Assembly: GCF_003790525.1 (NCBI RefSeq)
Contig: NZ_CP033635.1
DNA from: Escherichia coli
Lineage (GTDB): Bacteria > Pseudomonadota > Gammaproteobacteria > Enterobacterales > Enterobacteriaceae
DNA: 64,000 nucleotides
Strand: one strand, 5' to 3'
The first letter of the stretch is position 1, and the number at the start of each line of letters is the position of its first letter. Made by a program: the position numbers. Shown one piece after another: positions 34,701-40,700 of this stretch.

Positions 34701-37700
34701 GGTGTGAATCATAAAAAATGGTTGAATGGCAAAGAAACGCTGGAAACATCAGATAATCTTGCCTGGCAATCGGCCTTCACCAGTATGGATCTTGAAGAGT
34801 TATCGATGCCGGGGAATACTTTTTCTGTCCGTCAGCTTAATCATTACATCCATTATTTGCAGGAAACCGGACAACCCAGCAGCGAATACCGCCTTGCACT
34901 GTGGGAAAAACTGGGGCAACCGATCCTGACCCTGGCGATGATTTTGCTGGCTGTGCCGTTCACCTTTAGCGCCCCGCGCTCGCCAGGGGTGGGTAGCCGT
35001 CTCGCTGTAGGCGTCATCGTTGGCTTACTCACCTGGATCAGCTATCAAATCATGGTCAATCTGGGATTGTTATTTGCGTTGAGCGCACCTGTTACCGCGC
35101 TCGGTTTACCGGTAGCGTTTGTGTTGGTGGCGTTGAGCCTGGTGTATTGGTATGACAGACAACATTAAACCCGCCGTGGCGCAACACCACAGCGGGCTCA
35201 CATTACTGCTTCAGAGTAGCAAATGCCTGAATGATGGCATCGATTTGCTCACGACTGTGGGCAGCGTTTACGCTACAGCGCAGCAGAGTGATGCCTGCAG
35301 GCGCGGCAGGTGGCAGGATAAGATTCACATAAACGCCCAGCGAAATAAGCTCGCGCCAGATGCGTAAACCTTCCTCTTTCGAACCGATTATTACTGGCAC
35401 TACCGGGCTAATATGTGAACTTAACTCATAACCCAGTTTTTGCAGACCATCATACAGATGGTTGGCGTTATCCATCAGTTTTTGCCGCAGCTCTGGTTGT
35501 GTGGCAATGGTTCTTAACGACGAGCGCACGGTCGCAATGCAGGACGGAGAAGGAGAGGCGGTAAAAATATACGGGCGGCTGCCGTAGCGCAGCACTTCCA
35601 TCGCTTCCGAACCGACAGCAAAACCGCCAATCGAGGCCAGACTTTTACTGAAGGTGCCAACGATAATATCCACATCATCTTCAACGCCAACGGCTTCAGC
35701 CAGTCCGCGCCCCGTTGCGCCTAACACGCCAAACGAATGCGCTTCATCGACAATCAAATAACCACCGAGACGACGTTTGATATCAACAATTTCCGCTAAC
35801 GGCGCAACGTCACCGAGCATGCTGTAGATACCCTCAACGATGATAATCGCCTCTTTCGCCCGTTCACCGAGGCGAACCATGCGCCGTTCCAGATCTTTAG
35901 CATCGTTATGGCGGAAACGAATAATTTCCGCGCCACCGAGAGAACAGGCGTCATAAATACTGGCGTGGCTGTCGGCATCCAGTAACACCACGGCGTTATG
36001 GTCGGCAAGTGCGCTGATGACGCCTAAATTAGCGGTATAACCGGTTGAAAAAACGATAGCGGTAGGGCGATTGAAAAACTCGGCAATCTCTTTCTCTAAC
36101 GCCAGATGCGGCGCATAACTGCCGTTTGCCATACGAGAACCGGTGGTGCCGGTGCCTTGGGCCGCTAACGCTGCCTGACCTTCGGCGATGGCATCATGAT
36201 TAAAGGTTAAACCGAGATAATTATTGGTCCCGGCCAGAATCACTTTTTTATTGCCGATCCGACCTTCGGTGGCGGAATACACTTCATCAATACAGGTGCC
36301 AAACGGTGTTAACCCGTTGTCACTAAATTGCAGTCTCTCGCCAGCAAGGCGCGCATATTTATCGTATAGCCCCATTATTTATTCTCCAGCCATGGAAGTA
36401 GAGTTTCCATTAATTGCGCAGGGGTTTTGACATCCAGCAGAATATTAATAGGAATGGAAATATCGAATCTGTCTTCCAGCATCATTAAGAGATCCATCAC
36501 TTTGATCGACTCCAGGCCAAGATCGTTGACGAGATCGCTGTCGGGCTTAATTTCCACACCGTTTTCGACCAAATCCTGTAAACAGGAAAGGATGTAATCC
36601 ATTACTATTTCACGATTTACCATAGAAACGTTAACACACCTTTAAACAAGACAATCAAAATAGCCCGTTGCGTAATGCGTGTTCCAGGCTAATCCCGGGA
36701 AACCAATTAATATCTTCAGAAATACGGTTATTACTTGCCGACCAGTCGGCATGGGTTAATTCACGGATTTTCGAACGAGTCAGCATCGGTTCTTTACCCG
36801 CCAGACGGCTCAACGCGGTACTGATATCCGCAAGGCAGGTGAGTAGCGGCAGAGGAATACCGACCATCCGCACGGAACCACAGCGGACATCGGCAACAAG
36901 CTGTTGGACACGTTGCCAGTCATAGCCTCCGGCGACGCCATCGCATAATTCATAGGTTTGCGTCTGTACAGTTTCGGCGCTTAACCACTGACCCACTGCT
37001 TGCGCAAAATCGGTGACGTGCAGGAAAGAGAGCTGTGTCTCTGGCGTGCCAAGTCGTGGCAGCAGACCGCGCAGCATCCAGTCAAACAGCGGTTTTAACT
37101 CTTTATCGCCGGGACCATACACGGCTGTCGGGCGAAAAACGCCCAACGTAATTTCGTCAGCCATTGCAGTCAGCTGTTGTTCGGCGACGTGTTTGGAATT
37201 TGCGTACCAGGAGAGTTCGGGATGGCGCGCCGCCAGCGAAGAGATAAACAGAAAACGTTGGCAAAAGCCGCTCTCTTTTGCCGCTTGCATCAGGCGCAGG
37301 CTGCCGTCAACGTTGCAGCGGGTAAAAATCTCTTCTTTGTGCCCGCGCACTTGCCCGGCGCAATGGACCACCGCGCTGGCTCCGGTAACCAGTTCGCTAA
37401 GCGAATGTGTATCTTCCAGCGAACCGCGCACCCAAGTGAGATTATCATTGACGTGAGCGCGGGCAGTACGCGTCAATGCGCGAACGTGAAAGCCGCAGGC
37501 GAGCAGGTTATCAATAATATATTTACCGATAAACCCGGTAGCGCCCGTCACCGCGACAGTTTGATTCATGCCAGAGACTCCTGCACATGAAGACTGGCAG
37601 CATAAGCCTTCTGATAACGTTTTTTCGCTTCCGCACGGGCAGGCTTGCCGGAGGATGTTCGGGGAATACTGTGGGGCGGCAACAGATCGATATCCGCGGT

Positions 37701-40700
37701 AACGCCAAATTCGCTTTGGATCCGTGCTGCCAGCGCGTGGATAAGCTGCCCGCGACGTTCTTCATCGCTGATCCGACACTGGATCTGCAAAATGATTTTT
37801 TCCTGGGCGGTAACAAAAGCAATCGCATCGCCAGAATGAATTTCCGGTTCCTGTTCCGCAATATATTCAATATCCTGCGGCCAGATATTACGGCCACGAA
37901 TAATAATCAGATCTTTAATGCGTCCGGTGACATACAGATAACCGTCCAGCAGATAACCGAGGTCGCCGGTGTCTAACCAGCCCGTCGCGGCAATCTCGTC
38001 TTGTGAAATCTGGTCGCCAAAGTAACCGCTCATCAGGCTAGGGCCGGAGATGCAAATATGGCCTACCACACGTTCCGCGACAGGTATACCTGCTTCATTG
38101 CGGATTTCAATGCCATGTTCCGGCAACGCTTTACCGCAGTTGACGAAAGTCGATACGGCGCGTGTTTCAGCATCCGGCGCGACGGCTTTGCCCTGATATT
38201 CGAGGATGTCGCGATCCACTTCGTTAACCACAACCCCGGAAGCTTCATCAGAGAAGCTGACAGCCAGCGCATTTTCTGCCAGTCCGTAGCACGGCATGAA
38301 AGTTTTATCGTCAAAGTTGACCTGACGGAAACATTCAGCGAATTGATGGAGTTGTTCTGCGGAGATGGGTTCTGCACCAATACCAGCGACGCGCCAGCAG
38401 GAAAGATCCAGTTCAGCGAGATCTTTTTCATTCACGCGGCGCTGGCACAATTCATAGCCAAACGGCGGCGCAACGGAAACGGTGCCGCGATTTTTACTGA
38501 TCAATTTAAGCCATTGCAGAGGACGCATGGCAAAATCCTGAGTGCGCAAATAATCTACTGAAAGCTGCGTGGCGACGGGGGTCAGGAGAAAGCCGACCAG
38601 TCCCATATCATGGTAGAAAGGCAGCCAGGAGACGCAGCGGTCGCCAGGGCGTAATTTTATGCCATCGTGGCTTATAGCACGTAGATTAGCCATCACTTCG
38701 CGATGGGTGATAATGACGCCACGGGGAAAACGGGTGCTGCCGGAGGTGTACTGGAGGTAGGCGATATCGTTCGGAACTGGACGCTGGAGCGCAACATCGG
38801 CTTCCGGTAATGCCTTAAACCAGGCGTGGCTTAAAACATGTAATTCGGGGTTGTTGTTATGCGTCGCGGCATTGACCAGTGGCAACCACTCATCACCAGT
38901 GATAATGGCTGCGGGCTGGCAACTTGCCAGTAAACCCTGCAGCTTGGCGCTCCAGGAATCCCGCTGACCGACGCCCATGGGAATCGCCAACGGGACGGCG
39001 ACTAAGCCGGCATACTGGCAGGCAAAAAAAGCCTCTACGAACCCGCTACTGGTTTCGGCAATCAGCGCCACGCGATCGCCTTTTTTCAGGTTTAGCGATA
39101 ACAACCGCTTCGCACCAGCTTCGGCACGCGCTTTTAACGTCTGATATTCCAGTTGATCTTCAAGTTGGCAACGTCTGTCATAAAAATTCATTCCAGCGCT
39201 ACTCAGAGCGGCATAGTCCAAAGCATCAACCAGCGTTGGAAAATCGGCATAGCGCATAGGTAGGGAATGCGTAAAGATTTTATTAGACATATACACCACG
39301 AAAAAATTGGATATCAAAAATAAAATGACAATAATGCGGTGGATTATATAGGCATAAAAGATAAATGAGATAGTATTTTCATCAGTGTGAAAATGAACAT
39401 TGATTTAAATAATGAATTTGAGTTTTTTGTTTTTATTGTGAATGATATTTAATTTATGAATATATTAAGAAGGAGCCTTGTCCGGTCGCCTTAAATCGAC
39501 AAAAGGCATTGTGGCGCTTCTGTGTAGTCTCTGACCTTATCGTAATCATTAATAAATACTATTTATTCGTTGTTTGTATTCATTGGGTTGATTATTAAGG
39601 TGCCGTTCGTTGCTGTTGCAACCTGTTTGTCACCGTTAATTATTTGTTACCCACAGAACTATGGAATGCGATCTGCTGATGATTAAAATTGAAAAAGTAA
39701 TTAATAAAAATGACCTTAAGGCATTTATCGCTTTTCCGTCATCACTTTATCCCGACGATCCAAACTGGATACCCCCTTTATTCATTGAACGCAACGAGCA
39801 TTTGTCTGCGAAAAATCCGGGGACGGACCATATCATCTGGCAGGCGTGGGTGGCAAAAAAAGCGGGGCAGATAGTTGGGCGTATTACCGCGCAAATAGAT
39901 ACATTGCACCGCGAGCGTTACGGCAAAGATACCGGTCATTTCGGCATGATTGACGCCATTGATGATCCGCAGGTTTTTGCCGCGTTGTTTGGCGCAGCGG
40001 AAGCGTGGTTGAAGTCACAAGGTGCAAGTAAGATCAGCGGTCCTTTCAGCCTGAATATCAATCAGGAAAGCGGATTACTGATTGAAGGTTTCGATACACC
40101 ACCCTGTGCGATGATGCCACACGGCAAACCGTGGTATGCCGCGCATATTGAACAATTGGGTTATCACAAAGGCATTGATTTACTGGCGTGGTGGATGCAG
40201 CGAACCGATCTCACTTTCTCTCCGGCGCTAAAAAAACTGATGGATCAGGTACGCAAAAAGGTGACCATTCGTTGCATCAATCGTCAGCGGTTTGCTGAAG
40301 AGATGCAGATCCTGCGTGAGATTTTCAACTCTGGCTGGCAGCACAACTGGGGATTTGTGCCGTTTACCGAACATGAATTCGCGACCATGGGCGACCAACT
40401 TAAATATCTGGTGCCGGACGATATGATCTACATCGCTGAGATTGATTCTGCACCCTGCGCGTTTATTGTCGGCTTGCCAAACATCAACGAGGCGATTGCC
40501 GATCTGAACGGATCGCTCTTTCCCTTCGGCTGGGCAAAATTGCTGTGGCGTTTAAAAGTCAGCGGTGTGCGAACTGCGCGAGTACCGCTGATGGGCGTGC
40601 GGGACGAGTATCAGTTCAGCCGCATCGGCCCGGTGATTGCGCTGTTATTGATTGAAGCCTTACGCGATCCGTTTGCCCGCCGGAAGATCGATGCGCTGGA

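What the first reader, a model, noticed from the sequence alone, without database searches (positions are those of the whole stretch)
35203..39317. Translationally coupled four-gene operon: acyl-AMP ligase, SDR reductase, ACP, Spt-like alpha-oxoamine synthase
All four are on the minus strand with overlapping or near-overlapping junctions: the ligase stop overlaps the SDR ATG, a 31-bp gap separates SDR from ACP, and the ACP stop overlaps the synthase ATG (TAATG). Motifs read directly from the sequence: YTSGSTRFPRGV adenylation core in the ligase, GATGFIG plus YANSK in the SDR, the phosphopantetheine serine region in the ACP, and the PLP-lysine GTFSKSL in the synthase. A dedicated ACP next to a ligase and an Spt-like enzyme is the arrangement described for bacterial sphingolipid synthesis in Caulobacter (Spt, ACP, ACP-synthetase, CerR reductase), as I recall it. 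The ligase motif has Arg where many adenylating enzymes have Gly and Lys, and the ACP has Glu-Ser rather than Asp-Ser; both are worth checking for functional consequences.
Basis: partly seen in the sequence, partly recalled or inferred. Interest (0 to 1): 0.85.

Follow-up and report, generated by a model that had tools for sequence, protein, structure and literature searches.

The report
E. coli sphingolipid-starter operon, already characterised
These four genes are the known Escherichia coli operon that loads a fatty acid onto a dedicated carrier protein and condenses it with serine to start sphingolipid synthesis; near-identical copies from strain BL21(DE3) have already been tested biochemically, so the finding is correct but not new.

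Summary
Four minus-strand ORFs with ATGA, 31-bp and TAATG junctions and all the quoted motifs are present.

- **Origin:** the window is E. coli chromosome between pitB/yghT and glcC. The segment is 100% identical to many RefSeq genomes and occurs in 4186 of 5426 complete E. coli genomes.
- **Annotation:** RefSeq already names the genes fatty acyl-AMP ligase, NAD-dependent epimerase/dehydratase, acyl carrier protein and spt.
- **Published tests:** the proteins are 98%, 95%, 100% and 99% identical to BL21(DE3) ECD_02851-02854 (AasR, "epi"/CerR, AcpR, SPT). Padilla-Gómez et al. 2022 showed that AcpR-Ec carries 4'-phosphopantetheine, that AasR-Ec acylates it, and that SPT-Ec prefers acyl-AcpR.
- **Ligase:** it is about 98.6% identical to crystal structure 3PBK (EcFAAL). 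That enzyme makes no acyl-CoA and loads an E. coli ACP.
- **Motif "oddities":** Glu-Ser in the ACP and STR...PRGV in the ligase are conserved family features, not defects.
- **K-12:** an IS5-associated deletion removed the operon.

Added here: the operon sits in a 13-gene neighbourhood conserved across Enterobacterales. It includes YghO (modelled as a tandem GNAT), a second LptF/G pair, a flippase, a CHAD-like protein and three P-loop kinases. I found no report of a native E. coli sphingolipid.

Verdict: already known; low interest.

The parts
37566..39290 (-). aasR: fatty acyl-AMP ligase acting as the AcpR-specific acyl-ACP synthetase (the EcFAAL protein)
   Evidence: NCBIfam NF006624 at 872 bits, cutoff 600. 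About 98.6% identical to PDB 3PBK. 98% identical to BL21(DE3) ECD_02851. The ATG at 39290 is supported by orthologue N-termini.
36655..37569 (-). epi/cerR: extended-SDR (NDUFA9-like) reductase for the 3-oxo group of 3-oxosphinganine or oxidised ceramide
   Evidence: Pfam Epimerase at 5.8e-23. The closest PDB sequences include NDUFA9 subunits. GATGFIG and YANSK are present. 95% identical to ECD_02852. Syntenic with the Caulobacteraceae homologue at 33% identity. Its function has not been tested for the E. coli protein.
36375..36623 (-). acpR: dedicated acyl carrier protein; 4'-phosphopantetheine site Ser39 in LGLES
   Evidence: Pfam PP-binding at 1.5e-13. Below the cutoffs of every housekeeping-ACP NCBIfam model. 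100% identical to BL21(DE3) ECD_02853, which incorporates beta-alanine (PMC9386255).
35203..36375 (-). spt: soluble PLP-dependent serine palmitoyltransferase; Lys244 forms the Schiff base, with His137, Asp210, His213 and Arg366
   Evidence: NF047599 at 600 bits, cutoff 500. The best PDB hits are all bacterial SPTs at 377 bits, against at most 207 bits for Kbl, BioF, ALAS or the cysteate acyltransferase. 99% identical to ECD_02854.
35166..35200 (-). GC-rich hairpin directly after the spt stop, between the convergent spt and lptG2 genes (terminator-like)
   Evidence: 16-pair stem with 9 GC pairs. The T-tail is weak, and the total number of such sites in the region is no higher than in shuffled sequence.
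39291..39660 (.). AT-rich divergent intergenic region between aasR and yghO (presumed promoters)
   Evidence: 31% GC against 52% for the operon. No minus-strand sigma-70 consensus match was found here, and the count for the whole region equals that of shuffles.
39661..40803 (+). yghO: tandem-GNAT N-acyltransferase, the bCerS/'aca' ceramide synthase homologue
   Evidence: No Pfam or NCBIfam hit. The AF2 model (pLDDT 84) matches tandem GNATs at E 6e-15 and TM about 0.6. Always divergent from aasR in orthologous loci, and adjacent to spt in distant MAGs. Named 'aca' in PMC9386255.
33022..35168 (+). second LptF/LptG permease pair (lptF2 33022-34092, lptG2 34089-35168), convergent with spt
   Evidence: TIGR04407 at 320 bits and TIGR04408 at 302 bits, both above cutoff. 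Co-conserved with the operon. Parallels Caulobacter LptF2/G2 (PMC11324152).
27831..32991 (.). co-conserved accessory genes: yghT (27831-28523, -), yghS (28697-29410, +), yghR (29442-30200, +), yghQ MOP-type flippase (30246-31595, +), CHAD-like 274-aa protein (31595-32419, +), YtfJ-family protein (32431-32991, +)

Best explanation
The four genes are the E. coli aasR-epi(cerR)-acpR-spt operon. It is the entry module of the Caulobacter-type ("rhodobacterial") ceramide pathway.

Proposed mechanism:
1. AasR, a fatty acyl-AMP ligase, adenylates a free C12-C16 fatty acid. Its CoA pocket is blocked, so it transfers the acyl group to the 4'-phosphopantetheine of the dedicated carrier AcpR (Ser39) and not to CoA.
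2. The soluble PLP enzyme Spt (Lys244) condenses acyl-AcpR with L-serine, with loss of CO2, to give 3-oxosphinganine.
3. The divergently transcribed tandem-GNAT protein YghO adds the N-acyl chain.
4. The NDUFA9-like SDR reduces the 3-oxo group. Whether this happens before or after N-acylation is disputed in the literature. The product is dihydroceramide.

Tight or overlapping junctions couple translation of the four proteins.

Shown for 98-100% identical BL21(DE3) proteins: phosphopantetheinylation of AcpR, acylation of AcpR by AasR, and the preference of Spt for acyl-AcpR. Shown for the 3PBK-type EcFAAL: rejection of CoA. Inferred: the SDR and YghO steps in E. coli, and all downstream modification and export.
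For: - **Identity and annotation:** the segment is 100% identical to many RefSeq E. coli genomes, which name it FAAL, epimerase, ACP and spt.
- **Family models:** the NCBIfam equivalog or subfamily cutoffs are passed for Spt and the FAAL. Pfam finds PP-binding in the ACP and Epimerase in the SDR.
- **Solved structures:** Spt is closest to solved bacterial SPTs, with all catalytic residues aligned. The ligase is about 98.6% identical to 3PBK.
- **Match to tested proteins:** 95-100% identity to BL21(DE3) ECD_02851-02854.
- **Published biochemistry:** PMC9386255 reports the activities of those proteins. PMC8460268 shows that EcFAAL makes acyl-AMP but no acyl-CoA and loads an E. coli ACP.
- **Conservation:** order, junction spacing and motifs are conserved in 31 loci.
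- **YghO:** modelled as a tandem GNAT.
Against: - I found no report of a sphingolipid from native E. coli.
- Extracts of BL21(DE3) carrying an empty vector make no detectable 3-oxosphinganine although the chromosome carries the operon. It may therefore be silent in culture.
- The SDR and YghO have not been tested for E. coli.
- The SDR has no N-terminal signal peptide in any orthologue, whereas Caulobacter CerR is reported to be periplasmic.
- The window's SDR differs from the BL21 protein at 14 of 304 residues.
Confidence: 0.9

Rival explanations
1. The operon is an evolutionary remnant in E. coli. The enzymes work when over-expressed, but the locus is never expressed and makes no lipid of physiological relevance.
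For: BL21(DE3) empty-vector extracts and cells show no 3-oxosphinganine (PMC9386255). K-12 lost the genes through an IS5-associated deletion and grows normally. About 23% of complete genomes lack the segment. No native lipid has been reported.
Against: Full-length matches occur in 4067 of 5426 genomes, with 95% or higher nucleotide identity in nearly all. All 13 linked genes are kept intact at 50-88% protein identity across at least 10 genera. The translational-coupling junctions are also preserved. This pattern indicates purifying selection.
Confidence: 0.15
2. The alpha-oxoamine synthase makes something other than a sphingoid base. Candidates are a BioF/Kbl-type product, a CqsA-like aminoketone signal or a sulfonolipid precursor.
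For: The same fold family includes BioF, Kbl, ALAS, CqsA and the cysteate acyltransferase, all of which give significant hits. Some database copies are still named 8-amino-7-oxononanoate synthase. The position equivalent to S. paucimobilis Arg378 is Leu354.
Against: Only the Spt equivalog model exceeds its cutoff. bioF scores 334 against a cutoff of 426, Kbl 298 against 460 and CqsA 221 against 428. The best PDB matches are SPTs by a margin of 170 bits. The 99% identical enzyme incorporates L-[14C]serine into 3-oxosphinganine. Leu at the Arg378 position is shared with the Caulobacteraceae Spt.
Confidence: 0.03
3. The FAAL and ACP feed a polyketide or lipopeptide pathway instead of Spt, as most FAALs do.
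For: FAALs are best known from PKS/NRPS pathways. The FAAL literature that uses EcFAAL never mentions sphingolipids.
Against: No PKS or NRPS gene lies within 20 kb in any of the loci. acpR overlaps spt in 30 of the 31 loci (a 1-nt gap in the Caulobacteraceae MAG). Acyl-AcpR is the preferred Spt substrate.
Confidence: 0.02

Closest known systems
E. coli BL21(DE3) ECD_02851-ECD_02854 (aasR, epi, acpR, spt) with yghO ECD_02850 (Padilla-Gómez et al. 2022, PMC9386255)
   Same: Same species, same chromosomal site (between glcC/yghO and the second lptG), same order and junctions. Proteins are 98%, 95%, 100% and 99% identical, and YghO has the same RefSeq protein accession.
   Different: Only allelic differences: 14 substitutions in the SDR, about 12 differences in the ligase including a one-residue indel, and 2 substitutions in Spt. 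RefSeq starts the BL21 ligase at Met12.
Caulobacter crescentus CC_1162-CC_1165 plus CC_1154 (spt, acpR, cerR/epi, aasR, bcerS/aca)
   Same: Same five protein families and the same order aasR-epi-acpR-spt. A flippase and a second LptF/G pair lie nearby. This was checked on a Caulobacteraceae MAG, which shows 53%, 39%, 33%, 43% and 42% identity (PMC11324152).
   Different: Identity is low. The Caulobacteraceae ACP has Asp-Ser where E. coli has Glu-Ser. No homologues of the E. coli YghR/S/T, CHAD-like or YtfJ-like genes were detected in that MAG locus. In the other direction, Caulobacter CpgB is described as an LCB5-domain kinase, a different type of kinase from the P-loop YghR/S/T; I did not search the window with cpgA-C sequences. 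AasR and AcpR pairs are species-specific.
EcFAAL, PDB 3PBK (Zhang et al. 2011; Patil et al. 2021, PMC8460268)
   Same: About 98.6% identical over 574 residues. The block from residue 207 to 309, which holds the residues that block the CoA pocket and the FAAL-specific helix, is 100% identical.
   Different: About 8 substitutions and one inserted Asn. In the texts I searched, the FAAL papers do not mention sphingolipids (checked in the FAAL review) and the sphingolipid paper does not mention FAAL or 3PBK. No indexed paper combines the terms.
Sphingomonas paucimobilis serine palmitoyltransferase (PDB 2JG2)
   Same: About 50% identity. His159, Asp231, His234, Lys265 and Arg390 are all conserved, as His137, Asp210, His213, Lys244 and Arg366.
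   Different: Arg378 of the mobile PATP loop is Leu354 here.

Membership tests
Bacterial serine palmitoyltransferase (alpha-oxoamine synthase family, Spt) | Score above the curated cutoff of an Spt-specific model and below the cutoffs of the BioF, Kbl, ALAS and CqsA models | tested here: met
   NF047599 scores 600.1 against a cutoff of 500. bioF scores 334 against 426, Kbl 298 against 460, CqsA 221 against 428 and ALAS 220 against 339.
Bacterial serine palmitoyltransferase (alpha-oxoamine synthase family, Spt) | PLP Schiff-base lysine and the His, Asp, His and Arg catalytic set | tested here: met
   Lys244, His137, Asp210, His213 and Arg366 align with Lys265, His159, Asp231, His234 and Arg390 of 2JG2.
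Bacterial serine palmitoyltransferase (alpha-oxoamine synthase family, Spt) | Condenses L-serine with a long-chain acyl thioester to give 3-oxosphinganine | not testable with these tools
   Published for the 99% identical ECD_02854 (PMC9386255; identity).
AcpR (sphingolipid-dedicated acyl carrier protein) | PP-binding domain with the conserved serine, distinct from housekeeping AcpP | tested here: met
   Pfam PF00550 at 1.5e-13. Every housekeeping-ACP NCBIfam model scores below its cutoff, the best being 35.6 against 71. Ser39 lies in LGLES.
AcpR (sphingolipid-dedicated acyl carrier protein) | Gene immediately upstream of spt in the same operon | tested here: met
   1-nt overlap here. The overlap is -1 or -14 in 29 of 31 orthologous loci.
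AcpR (sphingolipid-dedicated acyl carrier protein) | Carries 4'-phosphopantetheine and is acylated by the cognate AasR | not testable with these tools
   Published for the 100% identical ECD_02853 (PMC9386255; identity).
Fatty acyl-AMP ligase (FAAL) / AasR | FAAL model above cutoff; FAAL-specific insertion and blocked CoA pocket | tested here: met
   NF006624 scores 872 against a cutoff of 600. About 98.6% identical to 3PBK, with the pocket-blocking region (residues 207-309) identical (the features are described in PMC8460268).
Fatty acyl-AMP ligase (FAAL) / AasR | Makes acyl-AMP, rejects CoA, transfers the acyl group to holo-ACP | not testable with these tools
   Published for EcFAAL and AasR-Ec. 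I could not confirm that the 'EcACP' of Patil et al. is this ACP.
CerR / 'epi' (bacterial 3-oxo-sphingoid reductase) | Extended SDR with GxxGxxG and YxxxK, NDUFA9-like, encoded between aasR and acpR | tested here: met
   GATGFIG and YANSK are present. Pfam Epimerase. NDUFA9 subunits are among the best PDB hits. The position is conserved in 31 loci.
CerR / 'epi' (bacterial 3-oxo-sphingoid reductase) | Reduces 3-oxosphinganine or oxidised ceramide | not tested
   I found no assay of the E. coli protein. The function is inferred from Caulobacter genetics.
bCerS / 'aca' (bacterial ceramide synthase), for YghO | GNAT-fold N-acyltransferase genetically linked to spt | tested here: met
   The AF2 model matches tandem GNATs. 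42% identical to the Caulobacteraceae homologue, and adjacent to spt in distant MAGs. Its activity has not been tested.

The most novel reading that the evidence does not exclude
Most natural E. coli and many other Enterobacterales carry a conserved 13-gene locus. Under conditions not reproduced in the laboratory, it would make a still unidentified complex sphingolipid, possibly phosphorylated. In this reading:
- the five ceramide genes build the lipid;
- YghR/S/T (P-loop kinases) and a CHAD-like phosphate- or polyphosphate-binding protein build or handle the head group;
- YghQ flips the lipid across the inner membrane;
- a dedicated LptF2/G2 pair exports it to the outer membrane.

The lipid would have been missed because K-12 deleted the locus and the operon is silent in standard culture.
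Probability: 0.3. Interest if true: 0.65.

Novelty: already known. Interest (0 to 1): 0.15.

Why it matters
As stated, the finding adds nothing new. The operon is annotated in RefSeq, and the enzymes from a near-identical E. coli strain have been assayed and, in one case, crystallised.

Its residual value is as a pointer. About three quarters of sequenced E. coli carry an intact ceramide pathway inside a larger conserved locus whose product, regulation and physiological role in E. coli are still undescribed. The laboratory reference strain K-12 lacks it.

If natural E. coli do place a sphingolipid in their outer membrane, that would bear on envelope biology, on sensitivity to polymyxin and phage, and on host lipid signalling in the gut.

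Tried and rejected
- **YghR/S/T as homologues of the Caulobacter ceramide kinase CpgB.** Rejected on the published description: CpgB is described as an LCB5/sphingosine-kinase-type protein, whereas YghR/S/T give only weak P-loop and dTMP-kinase hits. I made no direct sequence comparison with CpgB.
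- **Promoter scan.** It found no minus-strand sigma-70 match upstream of aasR. Its total counts equal those of shuffled sequence (6 against 6.1 for promoters, 8 against 6.3 for terminators). No promoter is claimed.
- **Literature searches for a native E. coli sphingolipid or any study of yghQ/R/S with sphingolipids.** Nothing relevant was found. The library does not cover most subscription journals, so absence is not proven.
- **Confirming that 'EcACP' (UniProt A0A2X1NC35) of Patil et al. is this ACP.** The cluster look-up did not list that accession, so the link stays probable only.
- **Pfam and NCBIfam on YghO and the 274-aa protein.** These gave nothing. Only the structure models were informative.
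- **Leu354 at the Arg378 position of S. paucimobilis SPT as a sign of altered substrate.** Rejected, because the Caulobacteraceae Spt also has Leu there and the E. coli enzyme uses serine.
- **Scripts.** Two script runs failed because locus files were not yet exported. The pairwise comparisons were then done with protein comparison.

Full report
**1. What is there**

The window is Escherichia coli chromosome. The 4115-bp segment 35203-39317 is 100% identical to many RefSeq genomes, including SMS-3-5. It matches 4186 of 5426 complete E. coli genomes, and 4067 of them cover at least 80% of it. Nearly all matches are chromosomal and at least 95% identical.

The RefSeq annotation of SMS-3-5 places the segment between yghT-yghS-...-lptF-lptG on one side and yghO-glcC-glcDEFGBA on the other. 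It names the four genes fatty acyl-AMP ligase, NAD-dependent epimerase/dehydratase family protein, acyl carrier protein and spt (serine palmitoyltransferase).

**2. Check of the observation**

The ORF list and the sequence confirm four minus-strand genes:

| Gene | Coordinates | Length |
|---|---|---|
| spt | 35203-36375 | 390 aa |
| ACP | 36375-36623 | 82 aa |
| SDR | 36655-37569 | 304 aa |
| ligase | 37566-39290 (39317 for the longest ORF) | 574 aa |

All the motifs are present.

The ligase most probably starts at the ATG at 39290 (MSNKIF...), not at the upstream TTG at 39317. RefSeq and the crystallised protein use the ATG. The 11 residues before "MRYADF" are conserved in orthologues, some of which lack that internal Met.

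**3. Identity of each protein**

- **Synthase.** It passes the NCBIfam equivalog for serine palmitoyltransferase (NF047599, 600 bits, cutoff 500). It fails the cutoffs for BioF, Kbl, ALAS and CqsA. Its best solved relatives are the Sphingomonas SPTs (377 bits, about 50% identity). The cysteate acyltransferase, Kbl, BioF and ALAS follow at 207 bits or less. Lys244, His137, Asp210, His213 and Arg366 align with the catalytic residues of 2JG2.
- **Ligase.** It passes the FAAL model (872 bits, cutoff 600) and is about 98.6% identical to PDB 3PBK, the E. coli fatty acyl-adenylate ligase.
- **ACP.** It has a Pfam PP-binding domain (1.5e-13) but is below the cutoff of every housekeeping-ACP model.
- **SDR.** It is an extended SDR (Pfam Epimerase, 5.8e-23). 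Its closest solved sequences include complex-I NDUFA9 subunits. The literature reports the same homology for Caulobacter CerR (PMC11087976).

**4. It is already characterised**

Padilla-Gómez et al. 2022 (PMC9386255) studied the BL21(DE3) genes ECD_02851 (aasR), ECD_02852 (epi), ECD_02853 (acpR) and ECD_02854 (spt), with yghO (ECD_02850) as the acyl-CoA N-acyltransferase. They note that all five dihydroceramide genes are clustered only in C. crescentus and E. coli BL21.

They report three results:
- AcpR-Ec incorporates beta-alanine, so it carries 4'-phosphopantetheine.
- AasR-Ec acylates AcpR-Ec but not the Caulobacter AcpR.
- SPT-Ec converts L-[14C]serine to 3-oxosphinganine far better with palmitoyl-AcpR than with palmitoyl-CoA or palmitoyl-AcpP.

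I fetched the BL21(DE3) locus. The window proteins are 99% (Spt), 98% (ligase), 95% (SDR) and 100% (ACP) identical to it.

The FAAL literature adds independent evidence. EcFAAL (3PBK) was crystallised with lauroyl- and myristoyl-adenylate. It makes no acyl-CoA unless its blocked CoA pocket is re-opened by mutation, and it loads an E. coli ACP (PMC8460268, PMC11837247). The block from residue 207 to 309, which contains those pocket-blocking residues, is identical in the window protein.

**5. The two "unusual" motifs**

In 31 orthologous loci, the ACP motif LG[LI]ES with Glu-Ser occurs in all 29 Enterobacterales and Pseudomonas orthologues. Asp-Ser occurs in Stutzerimonas and in the Caulobacteraceae MAG. 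The ligase motif YTSGSTRFPRGV is invariant in the 30 gammaproteobacterial orthologues. Both are therefore conserved lineage or family features of proteins shown to be active. Whether Glu38 contributes to the reported species specificity of AasR/AcpR pairs is untested.

**6. Conservation and extent of the system**

A scan of one genome per species with Spt found close orthologues in many taxa:
- Escherichia spp., Citrobacter, Pseudocitrobacter, Hafnia and Sodalis;
- Serratia, Tatumella, Mangrovibacter, Pluralibacter, Rosenbergiella and Pantoea;
- several Pseudomonas and Stutzerimonas;
- a Caulobacteraceae MAG at 53% identity.

tblastn with the 13 window proteins gave three results:
- The order aasR-epi-acpR-spt, with yghO divergent, is invariant.
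- All 13 genes (yghT, yghS, yghR, yghQ, a 274-aa hypothetical, a YtfJ-family protein, a second lptF/lptG pair, and the five ceramide genes) stay within about 20 kb in Enterobacterales, although the blocks are rearranged.
- The Caulobacteraceae locus shows flippase-aasR-epi-acpR-spt, with the yghO homologue further on, matching the published Caulobacter map.

Junction spacing is conserved:
- -4 in 26 of 31 loci;
- 27-34 nt in 30 of 31, the Caulobacteraceae MAG having 78 nt;
- -1 or -14 in 29 of 31, the other two having -17 and +1.

This supports translational coupling.

**7. K-12**

In MG1655 an IS5 element (insH9) lies between yghO and a truncated yghQ. The four operon genes, lptF2/G2, the YtfJ-like gene and the 274-aa gene are absent. 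This explains why the pathway is not part of classical E. coli lipid biology.

**8. Neighbours examined in passing**

- **YghO.** It has no Pfam or NCBIfam hit. An AlphaFold2 model built on 15 orthologues (pLDDT 84) matches tandem-GNAT acyltransferases (Foldseek E 6e-15). This fits the bCerS/"aca" role and not the K-12 label "putative DNA-binding transcriptional regulator".
- **YghR/S/T.** These are three P-loop kinase-like paralogues with only weak dTMP-kinase similarity.
- **The second LptF/G pair.** Both exceed the NCBIfam cutoffs.

The roles of all these genes are inferred from linkage only.

**9. Expression**

The 370-bp region between aasR and yghO is 31% GC, against 52% for the operon. 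The consensus scan gives nothing above background. A 16-pair hairpin follows the spt stop. BL21(DE3) extracts with an empty vector make no 3-oxosphinganine, so the chromosomal operon seems silent or very weak in culture. I found no report of a native E. coli sphingolipid. The library searched is incomplete.

**10. Open points within the known model**

Whether reduction precedes or follows N-acylation is disputed. Caulobacter CerR is reported to be periplasmic. Yet in every orthologue examined here the Rossmann motif begins within the first 15 residues, within the first 10 in all but the Caulobacteraceae MAG, which leaves no room for an N-terminal signal peptide.

**11. Verdict**

Interest is low for the finding as stated. 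The only part that could still surprise is the unexplored product and function of the larger conserved locus in natural E. coli.

Noticed in passing
window 39661-40803 (+), yghO: YghO has no Pfam or NCBIfam hit, but its AlphaFold2 model (pLDDT 84) is a tandem-GNAT acyltransferase (Foldseek E 6e-15). K-12 annotates it as a 'putative DNA-binding transcriptional regulator', which the model does not support. It fits the bacterial ceramide synthase role.
   Followed up: yes
[not shown]
   Followed up: partly
window 27831-30200, yghT (-), yghS (+), yghR (+): Three paralogous P-loop kinase-like proteins with only weak dTMP-kinase similarity. RefSeq names two of them 'dTMP kinase', although the NCBIfam scores are far below cutoff. 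They are co-conserved with the ceramide genes even in Pseudomonas, and their substrate is unknown.
   Followed up: partly
window 33022-35168 (+): A second LptF/LptG permease pair, convergent with spt. Both score above the NCBIfam LptF and LptG cutoffs, so RefSeq names them lptF and lptG. They are probably a lipid-specific paralogue pair like Caulobacter LptF2/G2, not the housekeeping LPS exporter.
   Followed up: partly
L004 (K-12 MG1655 NC_000913 3130146-3131340) compared with window 31595-39660: In K-12 an IS5 element (insH9) replaces everything between yghO and a truncated yghQ, so the reference strain lacks the whole operon and six neighbouring genes. About 23% of complete E. coli genomes lack the segment.
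   Followed up: partly
window 39291-39660: The divergent aasR/yghO intergenic region is 370 bp at 31% GC, against 52% in the operon. Published BL21(DE3) empty-vector controls show no 3-oxosphinganine. Together these suggest a silenced (possibly H-NS-bound) promoter region. This has not been tested.
   Followed up: no
window 37566-39290 (-) and the literature: The crystallised 'EcFAAL' (3PBK) and the sphingolipid enzyme 'AasR-Ec' are the same protein. In the texts I searched, the FAAL review does not mention sphingolipids and the sphingolipid paper does not mention FAAL or 3PBK. No indexed paper combines the terms.
   Followed up: yes
window 36655-37569 (-) and orthologues in L005-L038: In every SDR orthologue the GxxGxxG motif starts within the first 15 residues, within the first 10 in all but the Caulobacteraceae MAG. 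There is therefore no N-terminal signal peptide, although Caulobacter CerR is reported to be periplasmic.
   Followed up: partly
window 35203-36375 (-), Spt residue Leu354: The position equivalent to Arg378 of the S. paucimobilis SPT is Leu in all gammaproteobacterial orthologues and in the Caulobacteraceae Spt. Arg390 is conserved (Arg366 here).
   Followed up: partly
L024 (Serratia sp. M24T3, second contig): This strain has a second acpR-spt pair (69% and 79% identity) on another contig, without an adjacent aasR, epi or yghO. It is in addition to the full locus in L014.
   Followed up: no
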